The notes: a model not told the origin generated them from the letters alone. Positions 782 to 9,043 are shown, counted from the first letter of the stretch. The stretch is 28,439 nucleotides of DNA from Candidatus Peregrinibacteria bacterium (GCA_030595015.1 JAUVDZ010000001.1:1-28439); one strand, 5' to 3'. Made by a program: numbers and translations.

Positions 782-1375
782 ATGGATTCACGAATAAGGA
801 AAAATCGAATTATGAATATGCTTGAGAAGTATGATGAAAAACTTCTTAAATTTTATTTAAATGAAGGTCCTGCTAAGCTTAAGAAAAGGCTTGAGATAAG
901 GGATGATGAGTTGTGGCGGATCGTCTTTGATTATCTTATTTTTGAGAAAAATGCAGTTAACGTTTGTACTAAAAAGAATACTAATTATATTCATAGTATC
1001 TTTGCTGAAAAAGGTCCAAATCATATTAAAAAAGCTTTTTATTTAGATAATTCTAAATATGAAAGTACTTTTGAAGAAATTCTGGATTTTATAGGAATTG
1101 CCAGAGGCGCGATATATGAGTATGTACGTAATAATTCACATTATTTTCAGGATTTAATAAGAAATGGAAAAGCTGAGAGAATTCGTATTGAATTAGGCTT
1201 GGAGAAGCTGAAATACGACGGTGTTTGGGAAGAAGTTCTTGATATCCTATTAGAATGTGTAAGTTTTAAAAATTTTACCTACAGCATGTTTGAGCAGGGT
1301 TTGAGATTTTTTACAAACATGTATAATACTGGTCGTACACATAGATCAGTAAAAAATTCCAATGAGATTAGATAA
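782..1375 (+). CDS. Hypothetical all-helical protein with three ~50-aa internal repeats
   Basis: 197-aa ORF with a strong promoter; overlaps the tlyA start by 14 nt. Repeats are anchored on G29/G78/G129 and D50/D102/D154. Confidence 0.8.
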   Translation: MDSRIRKNRIMNMLEKYDEKLLKFYLNEGPAKLKKRLEIRDDELWRIVFDYLIFEKNAVNVCTKKNTNYIHSIFAEKGPNHIKKAFYLDNSKYESTFEEILDFIGIARGAIYEYVRNNSHYFQDLIRNGKAERIRIELGLEKLKYDGVWEEVLDILLECVSFKNFTYSMFEQGLRFFTNMYNTGRTHRSVKNSNEIR

Positions 1376-2081
1376 ATTTTTGACTAGTCAAAACTACGTT
1401 GAGTCGCGAGAGAAAGCGAAATTTTTAATCGAACAAGGGCTAGTGAAAATTAATGGAATTATTGCTCAAAAAGTTGCATATAAAGTTAAATCTGATGACA
1501 TTATAGAAGTAGATAATAGCGATATGTTTGTTAGTCGAAGTGGAAATAAACTTGAAGCAGCGCTAAAAAACTTCAATTTAGATGTGAAAGATTACATTTG
1601 TTTGGATATTGGGGCTTCTATAGGCGGTTTTACTGAATGTTTGCTCAAGTATAATGCTAAAAAGGTTTATACCATTGATGTTGGCACTGACCAGCTTCAT
1701 AAAAAACTTCGCAGCAATAATCGTGTTATTTGTTATGAAGAAACGGATTTTCGCACTTTTAAGCGCTCAGAAATTGCTGAAGATCTTGATATTATAGTAA
1801 TTGATGTGTCATTTATCTCAATTAAAGAAATTATTGATCATATCTCTCCATTTTTAAATAAAAAAACCAAAGTAGTTGCGCTTTATAAGCCTCAATTTGA
1901 AGTAGGAAAAGGCAATATTAAGAAGGGGATTGCCAATAATGAAGAAGTAGTACAAAGAACCATTGAAGATTTTAAAGAATACATCGCAAAATATGACCTA
2001 CAAGTTACAGGATCTATGAAATCCCCGTTAAAAGGGAAAGAAGGTAACCAGGAATATCTTTTACTGATCCACTTGAGGTAA
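1362..2081 (+). CDS. tlyA: TlyA-family rRNA 2'-O-methyltransferase (S4 + FtsJ domains)
   Basis: N-terminal MRLDKFL...SREKA..LI..G.V.ING (S4 domain), then FVSRSGNKL, LDIGASIGGFT, IDVGTDQL, IDVSFIS, KPQFE and SPLKG.EGNQEYL. Confidence 0.95.
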   Translation: MRLDKFLTSQNYVESREKAKFLIEQGLVKINGIIAQKVAYKVKSDDIIEVDNSDMFVSRSGNKLEAALKNFNLDVKDYICLDIGASIGGFTECLLKYNAKKVYTIDVGTDQLHKKLRSNNRVICYEETDFRTFKRSEIAEDLDIIVIDVSFISIKEIIDHISPFLNKKTKVVALYKPQFEVGKGNIKKGIANNEEVVQRTIEDFKEYIAKYDLQVTGSMKSPLKGKEGNQEYLLLIHLR

Positions 2082-2375
2082 AGTTTTAAAATAAAGTTGT
2101 TTTTTTACTTTTTGATTTTGATCTATCAAATCAACTCTAAATGCTGTTTCGCGATCAGGAAGAAATTTATAGTACGCAAGATCAGCAATTAGCGTATCTT
2201 TTCCTAAACGTTCAAGATTCAAGTGATTATCGCTATCTTCTCGCTCACTTTGTTCAAAAGCTTCATACTCTTCACGAGTAAGATCTTTTATCCAAATACT
2301 TTTAGCATCATAAATAGCCATTAATTGAGATTCAGCCTCATCAACGTTGTTTGCTTTGATAATTTCTCCAGCCAT
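2061..2375 (-). CDS. Hypothetical protein
   Basis: 104-aa ORF with its own promoter upstream; its 3' end overlaps the convergent tlyA by 21 nt. No recognisable motif. Confidence 0.65.
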   Translation of the reverse strand: MAGEIIKANNVDEAESQLMAIYDAKSIWIKDLTREEYEAFEQSEREDSDNHLNLERLGKDTLIADLAYYKFLPDRETAFRVDLIDQNQKVKKQLYFKTLPQVDQ

Positions 2376-2399
2376 GATTGTTGGTTAATGTGTGTTTTT

Positions 2400-2428
2400 A
2401 TTTTATAGGGATAAGTTTGTATATTCAA
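2400..2428 (-). promoter_or_regulatory. Sigma70-type promoter TTGAAT-N17-TAAAAT for the 2375 gene
   Basis: On the minus strand the -35 reads at 2428-2423 and the -10 at 2405-2400. Confidence 0.55.
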
Positions 2429-2431
2429 GTA

Positions 2432-2474
2432 CCTTATCAAATTTGCCGTATTTTTGCCGTCATTTTTGATAAGG
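2432..2474. repeat. 10-bp inverted repeat (CCTTATCAAA / TTTGATAAGG) enclosing a tandem direct repeat TTTGCCGT x2
   Basis: Arms at 2432-2441 and 2465-2474. Direct repeats at 2442-2449 and 2453-2460 (11-bp period). Confidence 0.7.
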
Positions 2475-2541
2475 GATAGTTTCTACACTACGTCGTACTC
2501 GCTCAACCTGCTCAATCAGTCACATTCGTTCCTTCATCGCA

Positions 2542-2588
2542 GCTAGATCTAGCACTCCAAGAGACCTCCGCGCTTTGCGCTGCGGTCT
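2542..2588. repeat. Perfect 12-bp palindrome GCTAGATCTAGC plus a GC-rich hairpin immediately 3' of the tRNA
   Basis: Palindrome at 2542-2553. Hairpin at 2562-2588 reads AGACC-GCA-GCGC-AAA-GCGC-GGA-GGTCT on the minus strand and has no U-tract. Confidence 0.65.
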
Positions 2589-2589
2589 G

Positions 2590-2666
<77 letters not shown>

Positions 2667-2688
2667 ATATTAATCGTTAACGCTATTT

Positions 2689-2717
2689 AAAAAGCGCAGA
2701 CCCTTACGAGCCTGCGC
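2689..2717 (-). terminator. Intrinsic terminator downstream of secDF
   Basis: The minus strand reads GCGCAGGCTC-GTAA-GGGTCTGCGC-TTTTT: a 10-bp stem (2 G-U), a GNRA loop and a U5 tract, 27 nt after the secDF stop. Confidence 0.8.
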
Positions 2718-2718
2718 A

Positions 2719-2747
2719 ATTTTAACATTTATGTAATCTATTATCAA
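2719..2747 (-). promoter_or_regulatory. tRNA-Arg promoter TTGATA-N17-TAAAAT with an extended -10 (TGn)
   Basis: The -35 at 2747-2742 overlaps the secDF TGA stop. TG-T-TAAAAT ends at 2719. The predicted start site is ~2712, inside the terminator's 5' arm. Confidence 0.65.
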
Positions 2748-5700
2748 CGTTCTTTTCTAGATTCTGCTCTGTTGTTCCACCAGACAAGTACAGGACTTGC
2801 CACAAAGATTGATGAGTAAGTACCAATGATAGTACCAAGTACTAATGCAAGTACGAACCAGAAGATTGATGTGCTTCCTAAAATCAAGAGTGCTACTAAT
2901 GTGAATAGCGTAGAGATAGATGTGTTTATTGAACGAGCCATTGTTTGTGTTAAGGCTGCGTTTGCAACATCTTTGAATGTGACACCTCTTCCCATATCTT
3001 TTAAGTTTTCACGCACTCTGTCGAATACAACGATTGTGTCATGAACTGAGAAACCAAGTATTGTTAGAAGTGCAGTAATAAATAGGGCATCTACTTCAAC
3101 ATTAAGAACATTTCCTAATATCGCAAATATTCCAACTACGATTATTACATCATGTGCTAAGGCAACGATTGCAGATAATCCGAATCTCCAAGGAGAAACT
3201 TTTTTAGGGATTTTCCTGAATGCAAATGCGATATAGAATACAATTAATATTAATGCTATTACAAGTGCGAACATTGCTTTACTCTTCATTGTTTCTCCAA
3301 CAGTAGGACCCACTGTTGTGAATCTTGGTTCATCAAGTGCCCCGAATCTTTCTTCAAGTTTTTCTAATATCTGATCGTGAACTTCTACTGAGATGTATTT
3401 AGTTTTGATAATATATCCATCAGAAGACCAGATTATTGAAGCAGTACTAAAGTCTACAGCTTCTTCAACATCCGGAACAAATTCTGCTCCACCTGTTTCA
3501 GTTGTTGCAGCTACAGCTCCATCATCAGATCCATAAATCTCATTACCGATTTCTTCAAGAGCAGTGCTTAAATCTTCCTGAGCAACTTCCTGTTCAAATT
3601 TAACTTGCATCAATGTTCCTCCAGAAAAATCGATTCCGAATTTAAGTCCGAATGTGAAAATTGAAACAATCGCAATTGAGACTAAGATTCCTGAGAAAAC
3701 GAACCATTTTTTACTGTTACCAATAATATTATAAACTTTTCGTTTCTTTTCAGTTGGTTTAGCTCCTAATAAGAAGTAATTTTTAGCAAATCTTGTTCCA
3801 ACCATTAAATGTAAGAATGTTTTTGTAATAGTAATAGCCGTGAACATTGAAACTAAAATACCTGCAGCTAAGTTGAAAGCGAATCCCTGAATGATTGAAC
3901 TTCCAAAATAAAACAGAATTGCACAGGTAATCAATGAAGAGAAATTCGAATCTCTAATTGAGCTCCATGCACGGGCAAATCCAACATCAATAGCTGACCC
4001 AAGAGGTCTTCCGTCTCTAATTTCTTCTTTAATTCTTTCAAAGATAAGTATGTTAGCATCAACTGCCATACCAATCGATAAGATCACACCGGCTACACCA
4101 GCAAGTGTTAGAACGATTGGATTAGCAAGCAGGAATACTATAAAGAATAGGGCAAACACCGCCAGAACTGACGTGACCATTTTTTCCCACCCATTGTCTT
4201 TGTCATTTAATATTCGCATCATTAAGACGACGAACATCGTGACAGCAATAATAACTGCGACTATGGTATTTAATTGGGATTGTATTAAGAAAAGTAGAAT
4301 TACTGCGTAAACTCCTAATGCAACAACTGCCATTAATCCTAGAAGTCTGTAGTAGAGAGTCATGTAAATACCAAGAATGATCAATCCAATCATACCTGCC
4401 CACAAGCTCTTAACTAAGGCATCCTGACCAAGCTCTGCACCGATTGTGTATTGACCTGACAATACAATTGGTGCTGGAATTGCACCTGTATTTAAGTCAC
4501 GAGCTAAAGTAGTAGCCTCATCAATAGTGAAACTACCTTCGATAATTGCATTCCCTCCTGTAATTTTTGATCTTACATTTGGAGCAGAAATTAATTCACC
4601 TCCAACAAAAATTGCTAAAGGTTTTCCAATATTTTTATCTGTTATTTCAGCAAACAACTCTGCCCCTTCATCATTAAATGCGATTGAAACATAAGGTTCA
4701 TAAAGTTGATTGAACTGAACATCAGCATGTACGAAATGCTCACCAGTTAAGTTAGTATCCTGCCATTGGTTTGGAATAGTTGAGAAGAAAATTGATTCAT
4801 ATTTAACCTGTTTCTCAACTTTTGTTTCTGTAGTTCCTCCAACAATTGAACCTGATTTAAGTACGTGGTATCCAAATTCAGTTTCAACAGGATCACTTAC
4901 TTCATCTTTTTCTTCCATTATAAGTGCTGCTGATTCGAATGCTTCTGTGTATGCACCTTCACCTGCAGGTTTGATTAATACTCCACCTACTTCTTTTGCA
5001 GCTGAATCATCATTATATTCATCTGATAAAGTTTTAAATTCTTCACCATCACGTGCACGGCTTGAAATTTCTTCAGCTAATGCCAATGCTTCTTCTTTTG
5101 TTCTCGTAACTTCTTCTCCAGCTCTTTCAGCTCCTGCGTAAGCAACTAAAACATGAGAAACATTTACTTTCTTTTCATCAGTAACTGTTCTGTCAGCGTC
5201 TTGAGTTTCAATTAATTTGATTACGTTTAATCCAGTTAATTCGATTAGTTCACCTTCAGGAGAAACTGTGTATTCTCCGCTTGTTTCAATTGTTCCTGAA
5301 TAAACTTGTCCTTCTGATAAGTCGAATATTTTACCAGCAATTGCTGAATTTAATTCGTCTTCAAATTTCCAATCTTCTTCTTGAGTATAAGTAACTACCG
5401 CAGGATTTGCCTGCTCTTCTTCCTGAGCGACTATGGCAAATTCTTCTCCGCTTTGAATTCTTTGTAATACATTATTTGCCTGCGTTTCAATTTCTTGTTT
5501 TTCATTTGGATCAATTTCGTCTTTTCTTTCTTTAAATTCTAATTGGATTGTTTTACCAATAGTTGCTTTTGCTTCTTCTACATCAACTCCGGCTAAATCA
5601 ACTATGATATGACTTTCACCCGCAGCTTCAGATACTACAATTCTTGGTTCGCTTACCCCAAGTGCATTTACACGCTTATTAATAACCTCTTTTACACCTT

Positions 5701-5926
5701 CAATGATAGCTTTTTGATCTTCTGATGGTACTTTTCTGAGATCAATTTTATAATCAAGTTGAGCTCCTCCTTGTAGGTCGAGGCCTAAATGAACATGCTG
5801 ATTTTTTATTTCATCAGGAGTCCAGCCGACCAATGGAGCTTTTGTCTCTGGTGGTAGATCGAGTATCCCGAGTATCACAGCAATAAATAGAATAACTAGA
5901 ACTTTAATAAAAGTTTTTCCTTTCAT
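2744..5926 (-). CDS. secDF: Fused protein translocase SecDF with parvulin-type PPIase modules inserted in the P1 domain
   Basis: SecD motifs LGLDLQGG, RVNALGVSEP, IG..LG and IGMAVDANILIFERIKEE. SecF motifs GIDFSGGT, VGPTVG, GFSVHDTIVVFDRVRE and GTYSSIFVA. Parvulin motifs VNVSHVLV and VETEFGYHVLK. Confidence 0.97.
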   Translation of the reverse strand: MKGKTFIKVLVILFIAVILGILDLPPETKAPLVGWTPDEIKNQHVHLGLDLQGGAQLDYKIDLRKVPSEDQKAIIEGVKEVINKRVNALGVSEPRIVVSEAAGESHIIVDLAGVDVEEAKATIGKTIQLEFKERKDEIDPNEKQEIETQANNVLQRIQSGEEFAIVAQEEEQANPAVVTYTQEEDWKFEDELNSAIAGKIFDLSEGQVYSGTIETSGEYTVSPEGELIELTGLNVIKLIETQDADRTVTDEKKVNVSHVLVAYAGAERAGEEVTRTKEEALALAEEISSRARDGEEFKTLSDEYNDDSAAKEVGGVLIKPAGEGAYTEAFESAALIMEEKDEVSDPVETEFGYHVLKSGSIVGGTTETKVEKQVKYESIFFSTIPNQWQDTNLTGEHFVHADVQFNQLYEPYVSIAFNDEGAELFAEITDKNIGKPLAIFVGGELISAPNVRSKITGGNAIIEGSFTIDEATTLARDLNTGAIPAPIVLSGQYTIGAELGQDALVKSLWAGMIGLIILGIYMTLYYRLLGLMAVVALGVYAVILLFLIQSQLNTIVAVIIAVTMFVVLMMRILNDKDNGWEKMVTSVLAVFALFFIVFLLANPIVLTLAGVAGVILSIGMAVDANILIFERIKEEIRDGRPLGSAIDVGFARAWSSIRDSNFSSLITCAILFYFGSSIIQGFAFNLAAGILVSMFTAITITKTFLHLMVGTRFAKNYFLLGAKPTEKKRKVYNIIGNSKKWFVFSGILVSIAIVSIFTFGLKFGIDFSGGTLMQVKFEQEVAQEDLSTALEEIGNEIYGSDDGAVAATTETGGAEFVPDVEEAVDFSTASIIWSSDGYIIKTKYISVEVHDQILEKLEERFGALDEPRFTTVGPTVGETMKSKAMFALVIALILIVFYIAFAFRKIPKKVSPWRFGLSAIVALAHDVIIVVGIFAILGNVLNVEVDALFITALLTILGFSVHDTIVVFDRVRENLKDMGRGVTFKDVANAALTQTMARSINTSISTLFTLVALLILGSTSIFWFVLALVLGTIIGTYSSIFVASPVLVWWNNRAESRKER

Positions 5927-5966: not shown

Positions 5967-6389
5967 TTATTGGTTTTCTGAGTGTAGTTTTTGATCGAGC
6001 TCTTCATTGTTGCCCTTTCCTGATCTTCCATAGTCATCATGTAGTTTTACAACGTCAGTTAAGTGAGGTGTTGAAACTTCAAAGATTTCAGAGTCTTCAA
6101 GTGCTTCAGCACGATGAATAGTATACGGATTTACATCGAATTTGTCACCTGGTTTTAGTATAATTTCCTTTAAATTTTTCTCTTCTGTGCCATAAACCAT
6201 TTTCACTAGTCCTGAGTAAACATATTGAGTTTCGAGTTTTTCCTCATGATACTGCAAAGAATAGCGGTGTCCCTTCTTGATTTCGAGGATTTTCCCCGCA
6301 TATTTCTCATTTTGAGCAAACCAAATCTCACGGCCCCAAGGTTTAGGTTTAATAAGTGCTTCGTGCTTTGGAGTTTGTTCGTTGTTCAT
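5967..6389 (-). CDS. Cupin protein, similar to the C-terminal mannose-6-phosphate isomerase domain of bifunctional ManC
   Basis: KPWG...KILEIKKG.RYSLQYH..K.E...V.SG and PYTIHR...LEDSEIFEVSTP..DVV.L.DDYGR; lies directly downstream of manC. Confidence 0.8.
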   Translation of the reverse strand: MNNEQTPKHEALIKPKPWGREIWFAQNEKYAGKILEIKKGHRYSLQYHEEKLETQYVYSGLVKMVYGTEEKNLKEIILKPGDKFDVNPYTIHRAEALEDSEIFEVSTPHLTDVVKLHDDYGRSGKGNNEELDQKLHSENQ

Positions 6390-6395
6390 AGAAAT

Positions 6396-6424
6396 ATTAT
6401 AAGGGAAAGAAGGGGATATGGGAA
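6396..6424 (-). promoter_or_regulatory. Promoter TTCCCA-N17-TATAAT, 6 nt before the cupin ATG (leaderless candidate)
   Basis: TATAAT at 6401-6396, then ATTTCT, then ATG at 6389. Confidence 0.55.
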
Positions 6425-6491
6425 GGAATTATGGCTACCATTTTTTAGGAGTTTTTCAAAATTTCAAAAATTTTGAATTTCTCCCGTATTA

Positions 6492-7556
6492 TTACAGATA
6501 CTTTCCTTCCTCTTTTAACTTTTCAACTACTTTTTTAACATCTTGTGAGCGGTTTTTTGCGCAAATTAGAAGTGCATCTTCAGTATCAACTACTACAATG
6601 TCATCTAAACCGATTGTTGCGATTATTTTATTTGGATTGTCTGTTCTAATTACTGAACCTTTTGTGTCGATGCCGATGTGTTTACGGTGCATTACATTTT
6701 CTGTTGATTCCGGAGCTAATTCATCATGGATTGATTCCCACGTACCAACATCGCTCCATCCAAAATCAGCTGGGATTATTTTAACTTCATCAGTTGAAAC
6801 TTTCTCCATTATTGCGTAGTCAATTGAGATTTTTTCGCATGCACTATAGTGTTCGCGGACTTTTGCGTTTTCTTCTTTTGTGCCGATTGAATCTTTAATT
6901 TTCATTAATTTATCGTATGTATCAGGTACATGTTTTTGATATTTTTCTAAAATTGTATCGATTCTCCAAACATACATTCCTGTGTTCCATAAATAGTCTC
7001 CGCAGTCCATAAACTCTTTTGCTTTTTCGAGATCAGGTTTTTCTGTGAAGCCTTTGAACTCTAAAACATCGTCGTTTATAGCTTCTCCGACTTTTACCCA
7101 ACCTAAGTTAACGTTAGGGAAGCGTGCTTTAACTTCAATTATATTAAGAGAGCGCTCGTCGCGAGCTACTTTTTCAGCTAATTCTAGTTTTTCACGGAAT
7201 TGTTGATTGTCTTTCACTAAATGATCAGCATATATAATAGACATCACTTCATCAGGGTCGGCATCAAGGCTTAAGCGCATTGCAGCGTAGCCAATACACG
7301 TTGCTGTGTCTCTAAGAGCAGGTTCCAAAATTATATGATCGTGTGAGATATTAGGAAGTTGTTGAACAATATCATCAAAAAAGTTTTCGTTTGTAGCAAT
7401 ATATATGTTTTCATCGCCAAGATACTTAACTCTTTCATAAGTTTCCTGTAGCATTGTTAAGTCACTTGTGAGTTTTTGGAATTGTTTAGGTCTTTCTCTC
7501 CGGCTTAAAGGCCAGAGTCGTGTTCCTGTGCCACCTGCTAATATTACAGCTTTCAT
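6492..7556 (-). CDS. manC: Mannose-1-phosphate guanylyltransferase (monofunctional, no cupin domain)
   Basis: VILAGGTGTRLWPLSR..RPKQF, EPALRDTA.CI, ADH, F.EKPD, WNTGMYVW, ISIDYAIMEK and WSDVGTW. Confidence 0.93.
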   Translation of the reverse strand: MKAVILAGGTGTRLWPLSRRERPKQFQKLTSDLTMLQETYERVKYLGDENIYIATNENFFDDIVQQLPNISHDHIILEPALRDTATCIGYAAMRLSLDADPDEVMSIIYADHLVKDNQQFREKLELAEKVARDERSLNIIEVKARFPNVNLGWVKVGEAINDDVLEFKGFTEKPDLEKAKEFMDCGDYLWNTGMYVWRIDTILEKYQKHVPDTYDKLMKIKDSIGTKEENAKVREHYSACEKISIDYAIMEKVSTDEVKIIPADFGWSDVGTWESIHDELAPESTENVMHRKHIGIDTKGSVIRTDNPNKIIATIGLDDIVVVDTEDALLICAKNRSQDVKKVVEKLKEEGKYL

Positions 7557-9043
7557 TTCTTAATAATTAATGATTTATCCCAGTCTTTTGGCGGTTTTAT
7601 CCCGAGGAGATCCAGTATAGTCGGAGCAATGTTAGAAAGTCCACCCTTTTTACGTAGTTTTGCCTTTTTATATTCATTTGAACAAAGCATGAATACAACA
7701 GGATTCAATGTGTGACTCGGACACTCTTCTCCATTTTTTTCATAAATCATATAATCTGCGTTTCCATGATCTGCAGTTACAAGCACGTGATATCCTTTAG
7801 TCATAGCCGCAGGAACGACTTTGGTTAGACATTCATCAAGAGTTTGGATAGCCTTTATTGTGGCTTTATAATCACCGGAATGACCAACCAGGTCACCATT
7901 TGCAAAGTTCATTGCTATGAATTTGTACTCATTAATTTTTATATCTTTTAAAAATTCTGTTGTGATTTTTTTTGCACTCATTTCTGGTTTCGAAGCGTAT
8001 GATTTTACTTTCGCACTTGGCACAAGAATTCTCTTTTCATTTTTATATGCTTTCTTATCTTGTGAATTAAAAAAGAAAGTTACGTGTGCATATTTTTCTG
8101 TTTCAGCGATTCTTAATTGTTTATAATTTTTCTTTGAAAGAATTGTTCCAAGATTTGTTTTAAGTTTTGGAGCAGGGAATGCAACCTTTGCTTTTTCTGA
8201 ATAAGGCCCAAAACAACAAAAATAGGGCTTGATTCCTTTCATAAACTTTTCAGTAAGCTGAGATGCTCTATCGGTCCTGTAGTTGAAGAAAATCACACTA
8301 TCTTTTTTGGTGATTTTTCCATTTTTATCCAAAACCACCGGTTCAATATAGTAATCTGACTCAATATTTTTTTTGTACTGATTTTTCAAAGCTTGTATTG
8401 GATCATCTTCAAAATGGCCTTTCATTTTAGTTAATAAATCATATGCTTTTTTTGTACGATTCCAATTTGTATCTCGGTCCATTGCAAAATATCTTCCAAC
8501 CATTGTTGCAATTTTTCCAACTCCAATTGCAGCTATTTCTTTTTGAACTCTTTTGATAAATTTATCACCTGAACGCTCCGGAACATCACGACCATCCATA
8601 AACATGTGAATATAAACTTCTTTAATTTTATGTTTTTTAGCGAGTTTTAATAAAGTGAATAGGTGATTGTAATTTGAATGAAGGCCTGCGTCAGAAATCA
8701 TTCCCATTAAATGTAGCTTACTTCCTTTCTTCTTGGCATTTTTAAATGCACCTTCGACTTCTTTGATTTTATCTAGTTTATTGTTTTTGATAACCTGATC
8801 AATTGTTTTCATTGCTCCTAAAACGATTTTACCAGCTCCCATTGTGTAATGACCAACTTCAGAGCCTCCTTGAAAGCCTGGAGGTAAGCCTACAGCAGGC
8901 CCATGGGCTCCAAGTAGAGTTTTAGGGTATGTTCGTCTTAATTTATCTATAAAAGGGGTTTTAGCATTAGTAACAGCGTTCCCTTTATACTTTTTGCCCT
9001 CACCATATCCATCTAAAATAATTAATAGAACTTTTTTATCCAT
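7553..9043 (-). CDS. gpmI: 2,3-bisphosphoglycerate-independent phosphoglycerate mutase
   Basis: LIILDGYG, SEVGH (phospho-Ser), DGRD, GRYFAMDRD, NYRTDRA, ETEKYAHVTFFFN, N.DLVGHSG, TADHGNA and HT.NPV. Confidence 0.96.
   Translation of the reverse strand: MDKKVLLIILDGYGEGKKYKGNAVTNAKTPFIDKLRRTYPKTLLGAHGPAVGLPPGFQGGSEVGHYTMGAGKIVLGAMKTIDQVIKNNKLDKIKEVEGAFKNAKKKGSKLHLMGMISDAGLHSNYNHLFTLLKLAKKHKIKEVYIHMFMDGRDVPERSGDKFIKRVQKEIAAIGVGKIATMVGRYFAMDRDTNWNRTKKAYDLLTKMKGHFEDDPIQALKNQYKKNIESDYYIEPVVLDKNGKITKKDSVIFFNYRTDRASQLTEKFMKGIKPYFCCFGPYSEKAKVAFPAPKLKTNLGTILSKKNYKQLRIAETEKYAHVTFFFNSQDKKAYKNEKRILVPSAKVKSYASKPEMSAKKITTEFLKDIKINEYKFIAMNFANGDLVGHSGDYKATIKAIQTLDECLTKVVPAAMTKGYHVLVTADHGNADYMIYEKNGEECPSHTLNPVVFMLCSNEYKKAKLRKKGGLSNIAPTILDLLGIKPPKDWDKSLIIKK

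What the first reader, a model, noticed from the sequence alone, without database searches (positions are those of the whole stretch)
4772..5527. SecDF with nested parvulin PPIase domains built into its periplasmic P1 head
Seen: ~250 aa (aa ~134-385) inserted between the SecD strand QLEFKE and the W..T.LTG..F motif. It contains a complete parvulin domain (aa ~252-358: VNVSHVLV, GEEFKTLSDEYNDDS, VSDPVETEFGYHVLK) with both active-site His (H258, H354). Around it is a degenerate parvulin-like module (QANNVLQRIQSGEEFAIVAQE...IFDLSEGQV...TGLNVIKLIE) whose missing first strand appears after the inner domain (QVKYESIFF). That suggests a permuted outer domain holding the inner one on a two-stranded stalk (DRTVTDEK / GTTETKVEK). 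Known: SecDF P1 pulls emerging chains using proton motive force; PpiD and PrsA are separate parvulin foldases at the translocon exit; the E. coli PpiD parvulin is catalytically inactive. The proton-relay motifs AVDAN and HDTIVVFDR are intact. Inferred: a single-chain translocation-plus-folding machine. I know of no characterised example.
Basis: partly seen in the sequence, partly recalled or inferred. Interest (0 to 1): 0.75.

Follow-up and report, generated by a model that had tools for sequence, protein, structure and literature searches.

The report
SecDF with built-in nested parvulin foldase
The protein-export motor SecDF of this tiny-genome (Peregrinibacteria-type) bacterium has a rigid two-part prolyl-isomerase module spliced into its outward-facing arm, which probably joins export and folding in one protein; the design is conserved in hundreds of uncultured relatives, and I found no paper describing it.

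Summary
Window 2744-5926 (minus strand) encodes a complete 1060-aa fused SecDF. Residues 134-385 (nt 4772-5527) are an insert between the P1-base strand QLEFKE and the P1 head.

- **Inner domain:** aa 253-362 is an intact parvulin (Pfam E 5e-22; structural Z 16.8). Its H258/D307/T349/H354 tetrad is conserved in relatives.
- **Outer module:** aa 140-239 plus strand 373-382 is a degenerate parvulin. It lacks both histidines (N234/S378).
- **Nesting:** my covariation analysis of 245 homologues shows one continuous antiparallel ribbon, 232-258 paired with 380-354. This supports the nested, permuted wiring independently of the AlphaFold2 models, whose strand pattern fits it.
- **Distribution:** the insert occurs in 95 of 151 sampled genomes of the class, and 320 species genomes encode a relative of it. 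Their titles name Peregrinibacteria, Peribacteria and Gracilibacteria.
- **Other foldases:** I found no PrsA/PpiD/SurA-type gene in this 79%-complete genome. The only other parvulin is a membrane-domain-less copy of the same ectodomain. Its relatives are lipoproteins.
- **Literature:** four full-text searches found no description.

This scan has already noted SecD-parvulin fusions on other DNA (189 notes). Function is inferred, not shown. The closest functional analogue is the Mycoplasma Sec-PrsA-like dome.

The parts
2744..5926 (-). Fused secDF gene, 1060 aa plus stop codon
   Evidence: ORF list. Pfam and NCBIfam SecD/SecF hits. The AlphaFold2 model matches SecDF structures 5xan and 3aqp with TM-score by target 0.72-0.74.
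5522..5701 (-). P1-base N-terminal part (aa 76-135), ending in strand QLEFKE
   Evidence: Pfam SecD_1st, E 5.4e-14. T126-E130 and F131 are invariant in 85 homologues.
4772..5527 (-). The reported insert, aa 134-385
   Evidence: Gap in the alignment to T. thermophilus SecDF between aa 136 and 392. AlphaFold2 model of aa 126-400: pLDDT 93.9, pTM 0.72.
5210..5509 (-). Outer degenerate parvulin-like module, aa 140-239 (helices 142-158, 163-173, 194-200; strands 178-188, 213-221, 227-239)
   Evidence: Pfam Rotamase E 1e-4, profile positions 11-87. hhalign against the inner domain: probability 94.5%, E 8e-8. N234 sits where the catalytic His would be.
5171..5209 (-). Ascending stalk strand, aa 240-252
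   Evidence: Part of the continuous AlphaFold2 strand 227-249. For residues 241-247, 249 and 250 the top covariation partner lies in 365-373.
4841..5170 (-). Inner intact parvulin PPIase domain, aa 253-362
   Evidence: Pfam Rotamase_3 E 5e-22. VIA-align Z 16.8 to Ess1 and Z 16.1 (rmsd 1.4) to B. cereus PrsA. H258 84/85, D307 62/85 (E in 13), T349 75/85 (S in 9), H354 85/85.
4811..4840 (-). Descending stalk strand, aa 363-372
   Evidence: Part of AlphaFold2 strand 366-382. Covarying pairs 250-365, 247-368, 245-370, 246-371.
4781..4810 (-). Tail strand, aa 373-382, which serves as the first strand of the outer module
   Evidence: Covarying pairs 167-379, 201-374, 237-377, 239-377, 234-378 and 153-381 are among the top 70. 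With the tail placed first, the hhalign match to the inner domain grows from 81 to 104 columns.
4460..4765 (-). P1 head, aa 388-489
   Evidence: Pfam SecDF_P1_head E 2.6e-27. Aligns to T. thermophilus SecDF 159-261.
3767..4441 (-). SecD transmembrane half, aa 496-720, with AVDAN (D623)
   Evidence: AlphaFold2 helices. A621, V622, D623 and N625 are invariant. Aligns to AVDGN of T. thermophilus SecDF.
2747..3724 (-). SecF half, aa 735-1060, with HDTIVVFDR at 962
   Evidence: Sec_GG at 754-781 and SecD_SecF_C at 858-1052. Aligns to T. thermophilus SecDF 556-730.

Best explanation
This is a functional, fused SecDF whose extracytoplasmic P1 domain carries a rigid two-parvulin module at the connection between P1 base and P1 head.

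The outer module is a parvulin that has lost both catalytic histidines. It is wired in permuted order, starting at helix 1 and ending with strand 1. Its last strand runs on without a break as one side of a two-stranded beta-ribbon and becomes strand 1 of a second, intact parvulin at the tip. The last strand of that inner domain runs back down the ribbon and becomes the missing first strand of the outer module.

The inner domain keeps the parvulin His/Asp/Thr/His tetrad. It most likely acts as a PrsA/PpiD-type prolyl isomerase and holdase for chains that leave SecYEG and are caught by the P1 head. A folding helper that other bacteria recruit as a separate protein is therefore built into the motor here.

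Shown: the architecture, the topology and the conservation. Inferred: catalytic activity, substrate contact, and any coupling to the proton-driven head movement.
For: - **Domain order:** Pfam and NCBIfam.
- **Whole-protein fold:** SecDF.
- **Inner domain:** parvulin fold, Z 16.8 to Ess1 and Z 16.1 (rmsd 1.4) to PrsA. The tetrad is conserved in 85 homologues and aligns residue for residue to Pin1 H59/C113/T152/H157 (Pin1 residue numbers are from my memory).
- **Outer module:** homologous to the inner domain, hhalign probability 94.5%.
- **Nested wiring:** mean-field covariation on 245 unique homologues (effective number 193) gives an antiparallel ladder, with i+j between 612 and 617, from residues 232-258 to 380-354. 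The band lies 4.5 SD above other antidiagonals, and 15 residues have their top-ranked partner on it. The known His258-His354 contact is recovered as a positive control.
- **Rigid module:** 17 of the top 137 couplings link the outer and inner modules, and the insert model has pTM 0.72.
- **Motor intact:** motifs are invariant and align to T. thermophilus SecDF.
- **Conservation:** 352 database proteins match, and all of the best 120 carry SecD plus Rotamase domains. The insert was found in 95 of 151 sampled genomes of the class, and 320 species genomes encode a relative of it.
- **No rival foldase found:** no SurA_N_3-type chaperone domain in the genome, and the only other parvulin is a copy of the same ectodomain without membrane domains.
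- **Functional precedent:** in M. pneumoniae the Sec translocon, including SecDF, sits under a dome of PrsA-like proteins, and substrate density touches the active PPIC domain (bioRxiv 10.1101/2025.04.25.650208).
Against: - No activity, substrate or expression data exist.
- Parvulin domains of PpiD and SurA are dispensable or inactive (established knowledge), so a conserved tetrad does not prove catalysis.
- D307 is Glu, Gly or Cys in about a quarter of homologues.
- I could not inspect model coordinates or predicted errors, so where the module sits relative to the P1 head, the membrane and SecYEG is unknown.
- The genome is only 79% complete, so a separate foldase could be missing from the assembly.
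- An insert at the hinge might instead alter or restrict head movement.
Confidence: 0.7

Rival explanations
1. The module is a non-catalytic chaperone or substrate clamp. It enlarges the substrate-binding surface of P1, as the inactive parvulin of PpiD or the SurA core do, and prolyl isomerisation plays no role.
For: The outer module has clearly lost its catalytic residues, N234 and S378. PpiD's parvulin is inactive and SurA's parvulins are dispensable (established knowledge). D307 is not invariant.
Against: H354 and G352 are invariant. H258 is kept in 84 of 85 homologues and T349 is Thr or Ser in 84 of 85. The lipoprotein paralogue keeps the same HILIAY and FGYH motifs.
Confidence: 0.2
2. The two parvulins are simple tandem beads, SurA-like, and the nesting is an artefact of structure prediction.
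For: NCBIfam aligns aa 143-357 collinearly to the two parvulin domains of SurA, residues 192-379. Moving the tail strand to the front adds only about 2 bits to the hhalign score.
Against: The outer module has no strand before helix 142-158. The covariation ladder pairs 232-250 with 380-365 and runs on into 253-258 with 362-354. The tail strand couples to outer helices and strands, for example 167-379 and 201-374. This analysis used the same kind of alignment as AlphaFold2 but did not use the AlphaFold2 models.
Confidence: 0.05
3. The insert serves something other than folding of exported proteins. It might anchor or space SecDF relative to the cell wall or S-layer, dock a partner such as the lipoprotein paralogue, or regulate P1 head movement.
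For: The insert sits in the base-to-head connection. One related protein without membrane domains carries S-layer homology domains (P0157). Seven of the top 137 couplings link the inner domain to the first head strand.
Against: Parvulin domains on the outside of the cytoplasmic membrane are, where studied, foldase or chaperone parts (PrsA, PpiD, SurA, Mdp444). The catalytic face is conserved.
Confidence: 0.05

Closest known systems
SecDF of Thermus thermophilus and Deinococcus radiodurans (PDB 3AQP, 5YHF, 5XAN, 5XAP)
   Same: Twelve-helix RND-type membrane domain, P1 base and head, P4, and the conserved Asp-containing motifs (AVDAN, HD..FDR). The fold matches with TM-score by target 0.72-0.74.
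   Different: About 250 extra residues replace roughly 38 residues between Tt residues 120 and 159 and form two parvulin-type modules. No solved SecDF has such an insert.
PrsA (Bacillus, Listeria, Staphylococcus lipoprotein foldase; PDB 4WO7, 5HTF, 6VJ6)
   Same: An extracytoplasmic parvulin domain with an Asp-type active site. It gives the best sequence matches (E 1e-12) and Z 16.1 at rmsd 1.4. The parvulin is also held between N- and C-terminal parts of another domain.
   Different: There is no SurA/PrsA-type NC chaperone domain. The holder is a dead parvulin inside SecD P1, and the anchor is the motor itself.
PpiD-YfgM at SecYEG in E. coli (PDB 8ZHT; PMC9643414)
   Same: A parvulin-containing chaperone stationed at the translocon exit and acting on emerging chains.
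   Different: PpiD is a separate single-pass protein with an inactive parvulin and a SurA-like domain. Only a weak two-domain structural match was found, Z 10 at rmsd 13.8.
Mycoplasma pneumoniae Sec translocon dome (Mdp444/436/489; bioRxiv 10.1101/2025.04.25.650208 and 10.1101/2024.09.05.611430)
   Same: A genome-reduced bacterium without an outer membrane. PrsA-like PPIC proteins are physically joined to SecYEG-SecDF, with one active and several degenerate PPIC domains.
   Different: The dome is a non-covalent assembly of separate lipoproteins with SurA-like domains. Here the parvulins are part of the SecDF chain.
SurA (PDB 1M5Y)
   Same: Two consecutive parvulin domains. NCBIfam aligns aa 143-357 to SurA 192-379.
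   Different: SurA's parvulins are complete tandem domains on an N/C chaperone core. They are neither nested nor permuted.

Membership tests
SecD/SecF (RND superfamily protein-export subunit) | Two SecD_SecF_C six-helix membrane modules | tested here: met
   Pfam PF02355 E 7.9e-64 with two stretches. Foldseek E 2e-35 to 5xan and 3aqp.
SecD/SecF (RND superfamily protein-export subunit) | P1 base and P1 head ectodomain | tested here: met
   PF21760 E 5.4e-14 and PF22599 E 2.6e-27. Alignment to T. thermophilus SecDF 23-120 and 159-316.
SecD/SecF (RND superfamily protein-export subunit) | Conserved charged residues of the proton path (TM4 Asp; TM10 Asp and TM11 Arg in T. thermophilus) | tested here: met
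   D623 and N625 are invariant. AVDAN aligns to AVDGN, and HDTIVVFDR to NDSIVVSDR. The T. thermophilus residue numbers are from my memory.
SecD/SecF (RND superfamily protein-export subunit) | Proton-motive-force-dependent stimulation of translocation | not testable with these tools
   Needs biochemistry.
Parvulin (PpiC-type PPIase), inner domain aa 253-362 | Parvulin fold: four-stranded sheet with four helices | tested here: met
   VIA-align Z 16.8, 16.2 and 16.1 to Ess1, TbPin1 and PrsA, with 94-108 aligned residues at rmsd 1.4-1.8.
Parvulin (PpiC-type PPIase), inner domain aa 253-362 | His / Asp-or-Cys / Thr-or-Ser / His active-site tetrad | tested here: met
   H258, D307, T349 and H354 align to the Pin1 tetrad and are conserved.
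Parvulin (PpiC-type PPIase), inner domain aa 253-362 | Prolyl cis-trans isomerase activity | not testable with these tools
   Needs an enzyme assay.
Parvulin, outer module aa 140-239 plus 373-382 | Sequence and profile similarity to parvulins | tested here: met
   Pfam Rotamase 23.5 bits against a 21.7-bit cut-off. hhalign probability 94.5% to the inner domain.
Parvulin, outer module aa 140-239 plus 373-382 | Canonical strand order, with strand 1 at the N-terminus | tested here: not met
   The profile match starts at position 11 and no strand precedes helix 142-158. The strand is supplied by aa 373-382.
Parvulin, outer module aa 140-239 plus 373-382 | Catalytic histidine pair | tested here: not met
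   N234 and S378 occupy the equivalent, covarying positions, and both columns are variable.
PrsA / PpiD / SurA chaperone family | SurA-type N/C chaperone domain flanking the parvulin | tested here: not met
   No SurA_N-type Pfam hit in the protein. No PF13624 hit in the genome.
Pin1-type phospho-specific parvulins | Basic triad in the strand 1 to helix 1 loop (Pin1 K63, R68, R69) | tested here: not met
   The loop is long and shares TRTKEEAL with Pin1, but the triad positions are A262, E267 and R268 (Pin1 numbering from my memory).

The most novel reading that the evidence does not exclude
The nested parvulin module rides on the mobile P1 head, so the proton-driven swing of SecDF hands each emerging chain directly to an active prolyl isomerase. 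Together with the lipoprotein copy of the same ectodomain, and perhaps the neighbouring trypsin-like peptidase, it would form a minimal extracytoplasmic folding and quality-control station. That station would replace PrsA/PpiD/SurA in this lineage, and would be a single-chain counterpart of the Mycoplasma Sec dome.
Probability: 0.3. Interest if true: 0.8.

Novelty: new variant of a known kind. Interest (0 to 1): 0.62.

Why it matters
How exported proteins are handed from the Sec channel to folding helpers is still debated. In E. coli and Mycoplasma the contacts are transient or non-covalent and hard to trap. Here evolution has fixed a foldase onto the SecDF arm at a defined site, in hundreds of species with minimal genomes.

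- It offers a natural single-chain system for structural and biochemical study of export-folding coupling.
- It shows an unusual protein-engineering solution: one parvulin grown out of the strand 4 / strand 1 ribbon of another.
- It suggests that these bacteria rely on SecD-P1-based foldases instead of PrsA or PpiD.

Tried and rejected
- **Outer fold by structure search:** searching with the insert model did not test the outer module. The inner domain dominates every alignment, and hits spanning the outer part are weak PAS/Cache-like matches (Z 4.4-5.2) that I regard as uninformative.
- **Model coordinates:** I could not read them, because /data holds no model files. Inter-domain geometry is therefore not described.
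- **Phylum survey with the outer module alone:** the single-sequence query was too insensitive. It missed class members known to carry the insert, so I replaced it with a profile search.
- **Permuted hhalign test:** it gave only a 2-bit gain, which is too weak by itself. The covariation analysis settled the point.
- **Assembly chimera or frameshift artefact:** rejected. The ORF is uninterrupted and collinear homologues exist in 320 species genomes.
- **Pin1-like phospho-specificity:** rejected, because the basic triad is absent.
- **Failed call:** one search was a malformed look-up and gave nothing.

Full report
**1. The observation**

The window's longest ORF runs from 2744 to 5926 on the minus strand and encodes 1060 aa. 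The reported coordinates 4772-5527 are exactly codons 134-385.

Pfam finds these domains, in order:
- SecD_1st, aa 76-135
- Rotamase_3 / Rotamase, aa 250-357 (E 5.2e-22 and 1.6e-18)
- SecDF_P1_head, aa 390-485
- two SecD_SecF_C modules, plus Sec_GG

NCBIfam calls the protein SecDF and also reports PrsA-type and SurA-type isomerase models over the insert.

Against T. thermophilus SecDF, the alignment runs to aa 136 (Tt residue 120) and resumes at aa 392 (Tt residue 159). About 255 residues therefore stand where the reference has about 38. The whole-protein AlphaFold2 model (pLDDT 84) matches SecDF crystal structures with TM-score by target 0.72-0.74. The membrane motifs AVDAN (D623 and N625 invariant) and HDTIVVFDR align to their T. 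thermophilus counterparts.

**2. The inner domain**

Residues 253-362 are a standard parvulin. In a search that does not depend on Foldseek, the model of aa 126-400 (pLDDT 93.9, pTM 0.72) aligns over model residues 126-238 to three structures:
- yeast Ess1, Z 16.8
- TbPin1, Z 16.2
- B. cereus PrsA, Z 16.1 at rmsd 1.4

The sequence alignment to Pin1 places the residues as follows (Pin1 residue numbers are from my memory):
- H258 on H59
- D307 on C113
- T349 on T152
- H354 on H157

It also shows a shared TRTKEEAL motif at the start of helix 1. The phosphate-binding basic triad of Pin1 is not kept (A262, E267, R268).

Conservation of the tetrad in 85 homologues:

| Residue | Conservation |
|---|---|
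| H354, G352 | invariant |
| H258 | 84 of 85 |
| T349 | Thr in 75, Ser in 9 |
| D307 | Asp in 62, Glu in 13 |

**3. The outer module and the nesting**

Scanned alone, segment 134-250 passes Pfam's Rotamase cut-off (23.5 bits, E 1e-4). It covers only profile positions 11-87, so it has no first strand. A profile-profile comparison of the outer columns (136-246) with the inner columns (247-365) gives probability 94.5%, E 8e-8. It aligns 'NVIKL' (aa 234-238) with 'HVLKS' (aa 354-358). With the tail strand (366-385) placed in front, the alignment grows from 81 to 104 columns and puts S378 on H258, but the score rises by only 2 bits.

Both AlphaFold2 models show one long strand at 227-249 leading into inner strand 253-261. 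Inner strand 352-362 leads into a long strand at 366-382.

I could not read coordinates, so I tested the wiring by covariation.
- I collected 245 unique full-coverage homologues of the insert (effective number 193).
- I aligned them to a profile of the insert and computed mean-field direct couplings.
- The known parvulin contacts come out, including H258-H354.

For residues 232, 237, 239, 241-247, 249, 250, 253, 255 and 258, the single strongest partner lies on one antiparallel register (i+j between 612 and 617) in segment 380-354. The band score is 4.5 SD above other antidiagonals. The tail strand also couples to outer helices and strands: 167-379 (rank 2 overall), 201-374, 153-381 and 180-377. 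N234 couples to S378 in the same register as H354 to H258.

The insert is therefore one continuous two-stranded ribbon:
- Outer last strand, then stalk, then inner first strand.
- Inner last strand, then stalk, then a strand that plays the part of the outer module's first strand.

The nesting and the 'permuted' reading are supported. A simple tandem arrangement is unlikely. Seventeen of the top 137 couplings link the outer and inner modules, which fits a packed, rigid pair.

**4. Distribution**

- A database search restricted to the insert found 352 proteins at E of 1e-3 or lower among the 8000 candidates scored. All 120 listed carry SecD plus Rotamase domains. They come as fused SecDF (about 1060 aa) or SecD alone (about 690 aa), and named ones are Peregrinibacteria, Gracilibacteria or Patescibacteria.
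- In a sample of the window's own taxonomic class, 95 of 151 genomes (70 of 114 genera) match the insert. Several families gave no match with this query. Representatives of three of those families still have a SecD P1 head, in shorter ORFs; in a fourth family's representative no P1 head was found.
- A scan of one genome per species found 320 loci that encode a relative of the insert. The best 80 cover nearly all of it, and nearly all their titles name Peregrinibacteria, Peribacteria, Gracilibacteria or 'Patescibacteria group' (a few say 'bacterium', Nitrospirota or Altimarinota). The nearest is a marine single-cell genome at 80% identity.
- A profile search across the phylum shows the full nested match only within the class. 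Some other lineages have ORFs of about 700 aa that match the inner domain, the tail and the first head strand. Most others have only ordinary parvulin proteins of 330-410 aa.

**5. Other foldases in this genome**

The assembly is 1.13 Mb in 151 contigs and 79% complete. It has only one other parvulin hit and no SurA_N_3-type domain.

That other gene lies on contig C122 and is cut by the contig end. It encodes a parvulin followed by a SecD P1 head and then stops, with no membrane domain. Its full-length orthologue in a same-family genome is 473 aa. It aligns collinearly with SecDF aa 70-489 at 34% identity, E 4e-76.

About 36 database clusters form this family. Of the 30 family members examined, 25 have a lipobox at residues 17-28, and the other five have an N-terminal hydrophobic segment ending 'ALSWSA', which I read as a signal peptide or membrane anchor. 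All 30 end just after the last P1-head strand. One further relative (P0122, 604 aa) also has a lipobox, and another (P0157) carries S-layer homology domains instead.

In this lineage the SecD ectodomain with its parvulins therefore also exists as a free-standing lipoprotein. This argues that the module works as a foldase or chaperone in its own right.

**6. Mechanism**

The most likely reading (about 0.7) is a built-in PrsA/PpiD-type foldase or holdase on the SecDF arm.
- **Shown:** the architecture, the wiring, the conservation of catalytic residues, and an intact motor.
- **Inferred:** enzymatic activity, contact with emerging chains, and coupling to head movement.

Rivals:
- a non-catalytic clamp or chaperone (0.2)
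- tandem beads rather than nesting (0.05)
- a non-folding role such as anchoring or regulating the hinge (0.05)

**7. Comparison and novelty**

The protein is a member of SecD/SecF by every feature I could test. The inner domain is a member of the parvulins. The outer module is parvulin-derived but fails the strand-order and histidine tests. The insert is not a PrsA/PpiD/SurA family member, because it has no SurA-type chaperone domain.

The closest functional analogue is the M. pneumoniae translocon with its PrsA-like dome (10.1101/2025.04.25.650208 and 10.1101/2024.09.05.611430). The next closest is PpiD-YfgM at SecYEG (PMC9643414). Four full-text searches found no description of a SecD-parvulin fusion. 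The sequences are in public databases under generic names.

This scan has already recorded 189 notes on SecD with parvulin inserts in other genomes, several with the same nested reading. I treated these as leads only.

- the covariation test of the wiring
- the fused SecDF form
- the lipoprotein paralogue family in the same genome

I rate this a new variant of a known kind, with interest about 0.6.

Noticed in passing
Own genome contig C122, locus L001 1054-1839 (minus); orthologue L007 1250-2671 (plus): A paralogue of the whole SecD P1 ectodomain with both parvulin modules but no membrane domains. Relatives are 455-531 aa. 25 of the 30 family members examined have a lipobox, and about 36 database clusters form the family, annotated only as hypothetical protein or peptidylprolyl isomerase.
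   Followed up: yes
L001 390-1112 (plus) and L007 2610-3350 (minus): A membrane-anchored trypsin-like peptidase (Pfam Trypsin_2; E 2e-9 in the own genome, but 25.4 bits, below the 27.6-bit cut-off, in the relative) lies convergent to the lipoprotein paralogue and overlaps its 3' end in both genomes. It may be a foldase-protease quality-control pair. I did not check the catalytic residues.
   Followed up: partly
Proteins P0157 (569 aa) and P0122 (604 aa): Variants of the membrane-domain-less P1-parvulin protein. One has two S-layer homology domains at the N-terminus in place of a lipobox. The other is about 130 residues longer than typical family members, and I did not identify the extra part.
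   Followed up: partly
window 4727-5170 (inner domain aa 253-362 against aa 385-400): Seven of the top 137 covariation couplings link inner-parvulin residues to the first P1-head strand, for example 263-400, 361-400 and 347-396. They could reflect a real contact or an edge effect at the end of the alignment. Unexplained.
   Followed up: no
window 2590-2666 (minus): A tRNA-Arg (anticodon TCG) lies about 80 nt downstream of the secDF stop codon on the same strand.
   Followed up: no
Own genome contig C61, about 975-2942 (minus): A second RND-type ORF of 1044 aa gives weak SecD_SecF_C matches (E 3e-8 and 4e-5). It is probably an MMPL/RND transporter rather than a second SecDF.
   Followed up: no
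Loci L009 (G011) and L012 (G022): In some families of the same class, the SecD P1-head matches contain in-frame TGA codons (1 and 7). This fits the alternative genetic code reported for Gracilibacteria and Absconditabacteria. The window's own genes are open under table 11.
   Followed up: no
window 5967-9043 (minus): The genes upstream of secDF are housekeeping: a small cupin/mannose-6-phosphate isomerase-like protein, a mannose-1-phosphate guanylyltransferase-like NTP transferase and a cofactor-independent phosphoglycerate mutase. A prepilin peptidase and a TPR protein follow. None has an evident link to secretion-coupled folding.
   Followed up: partly
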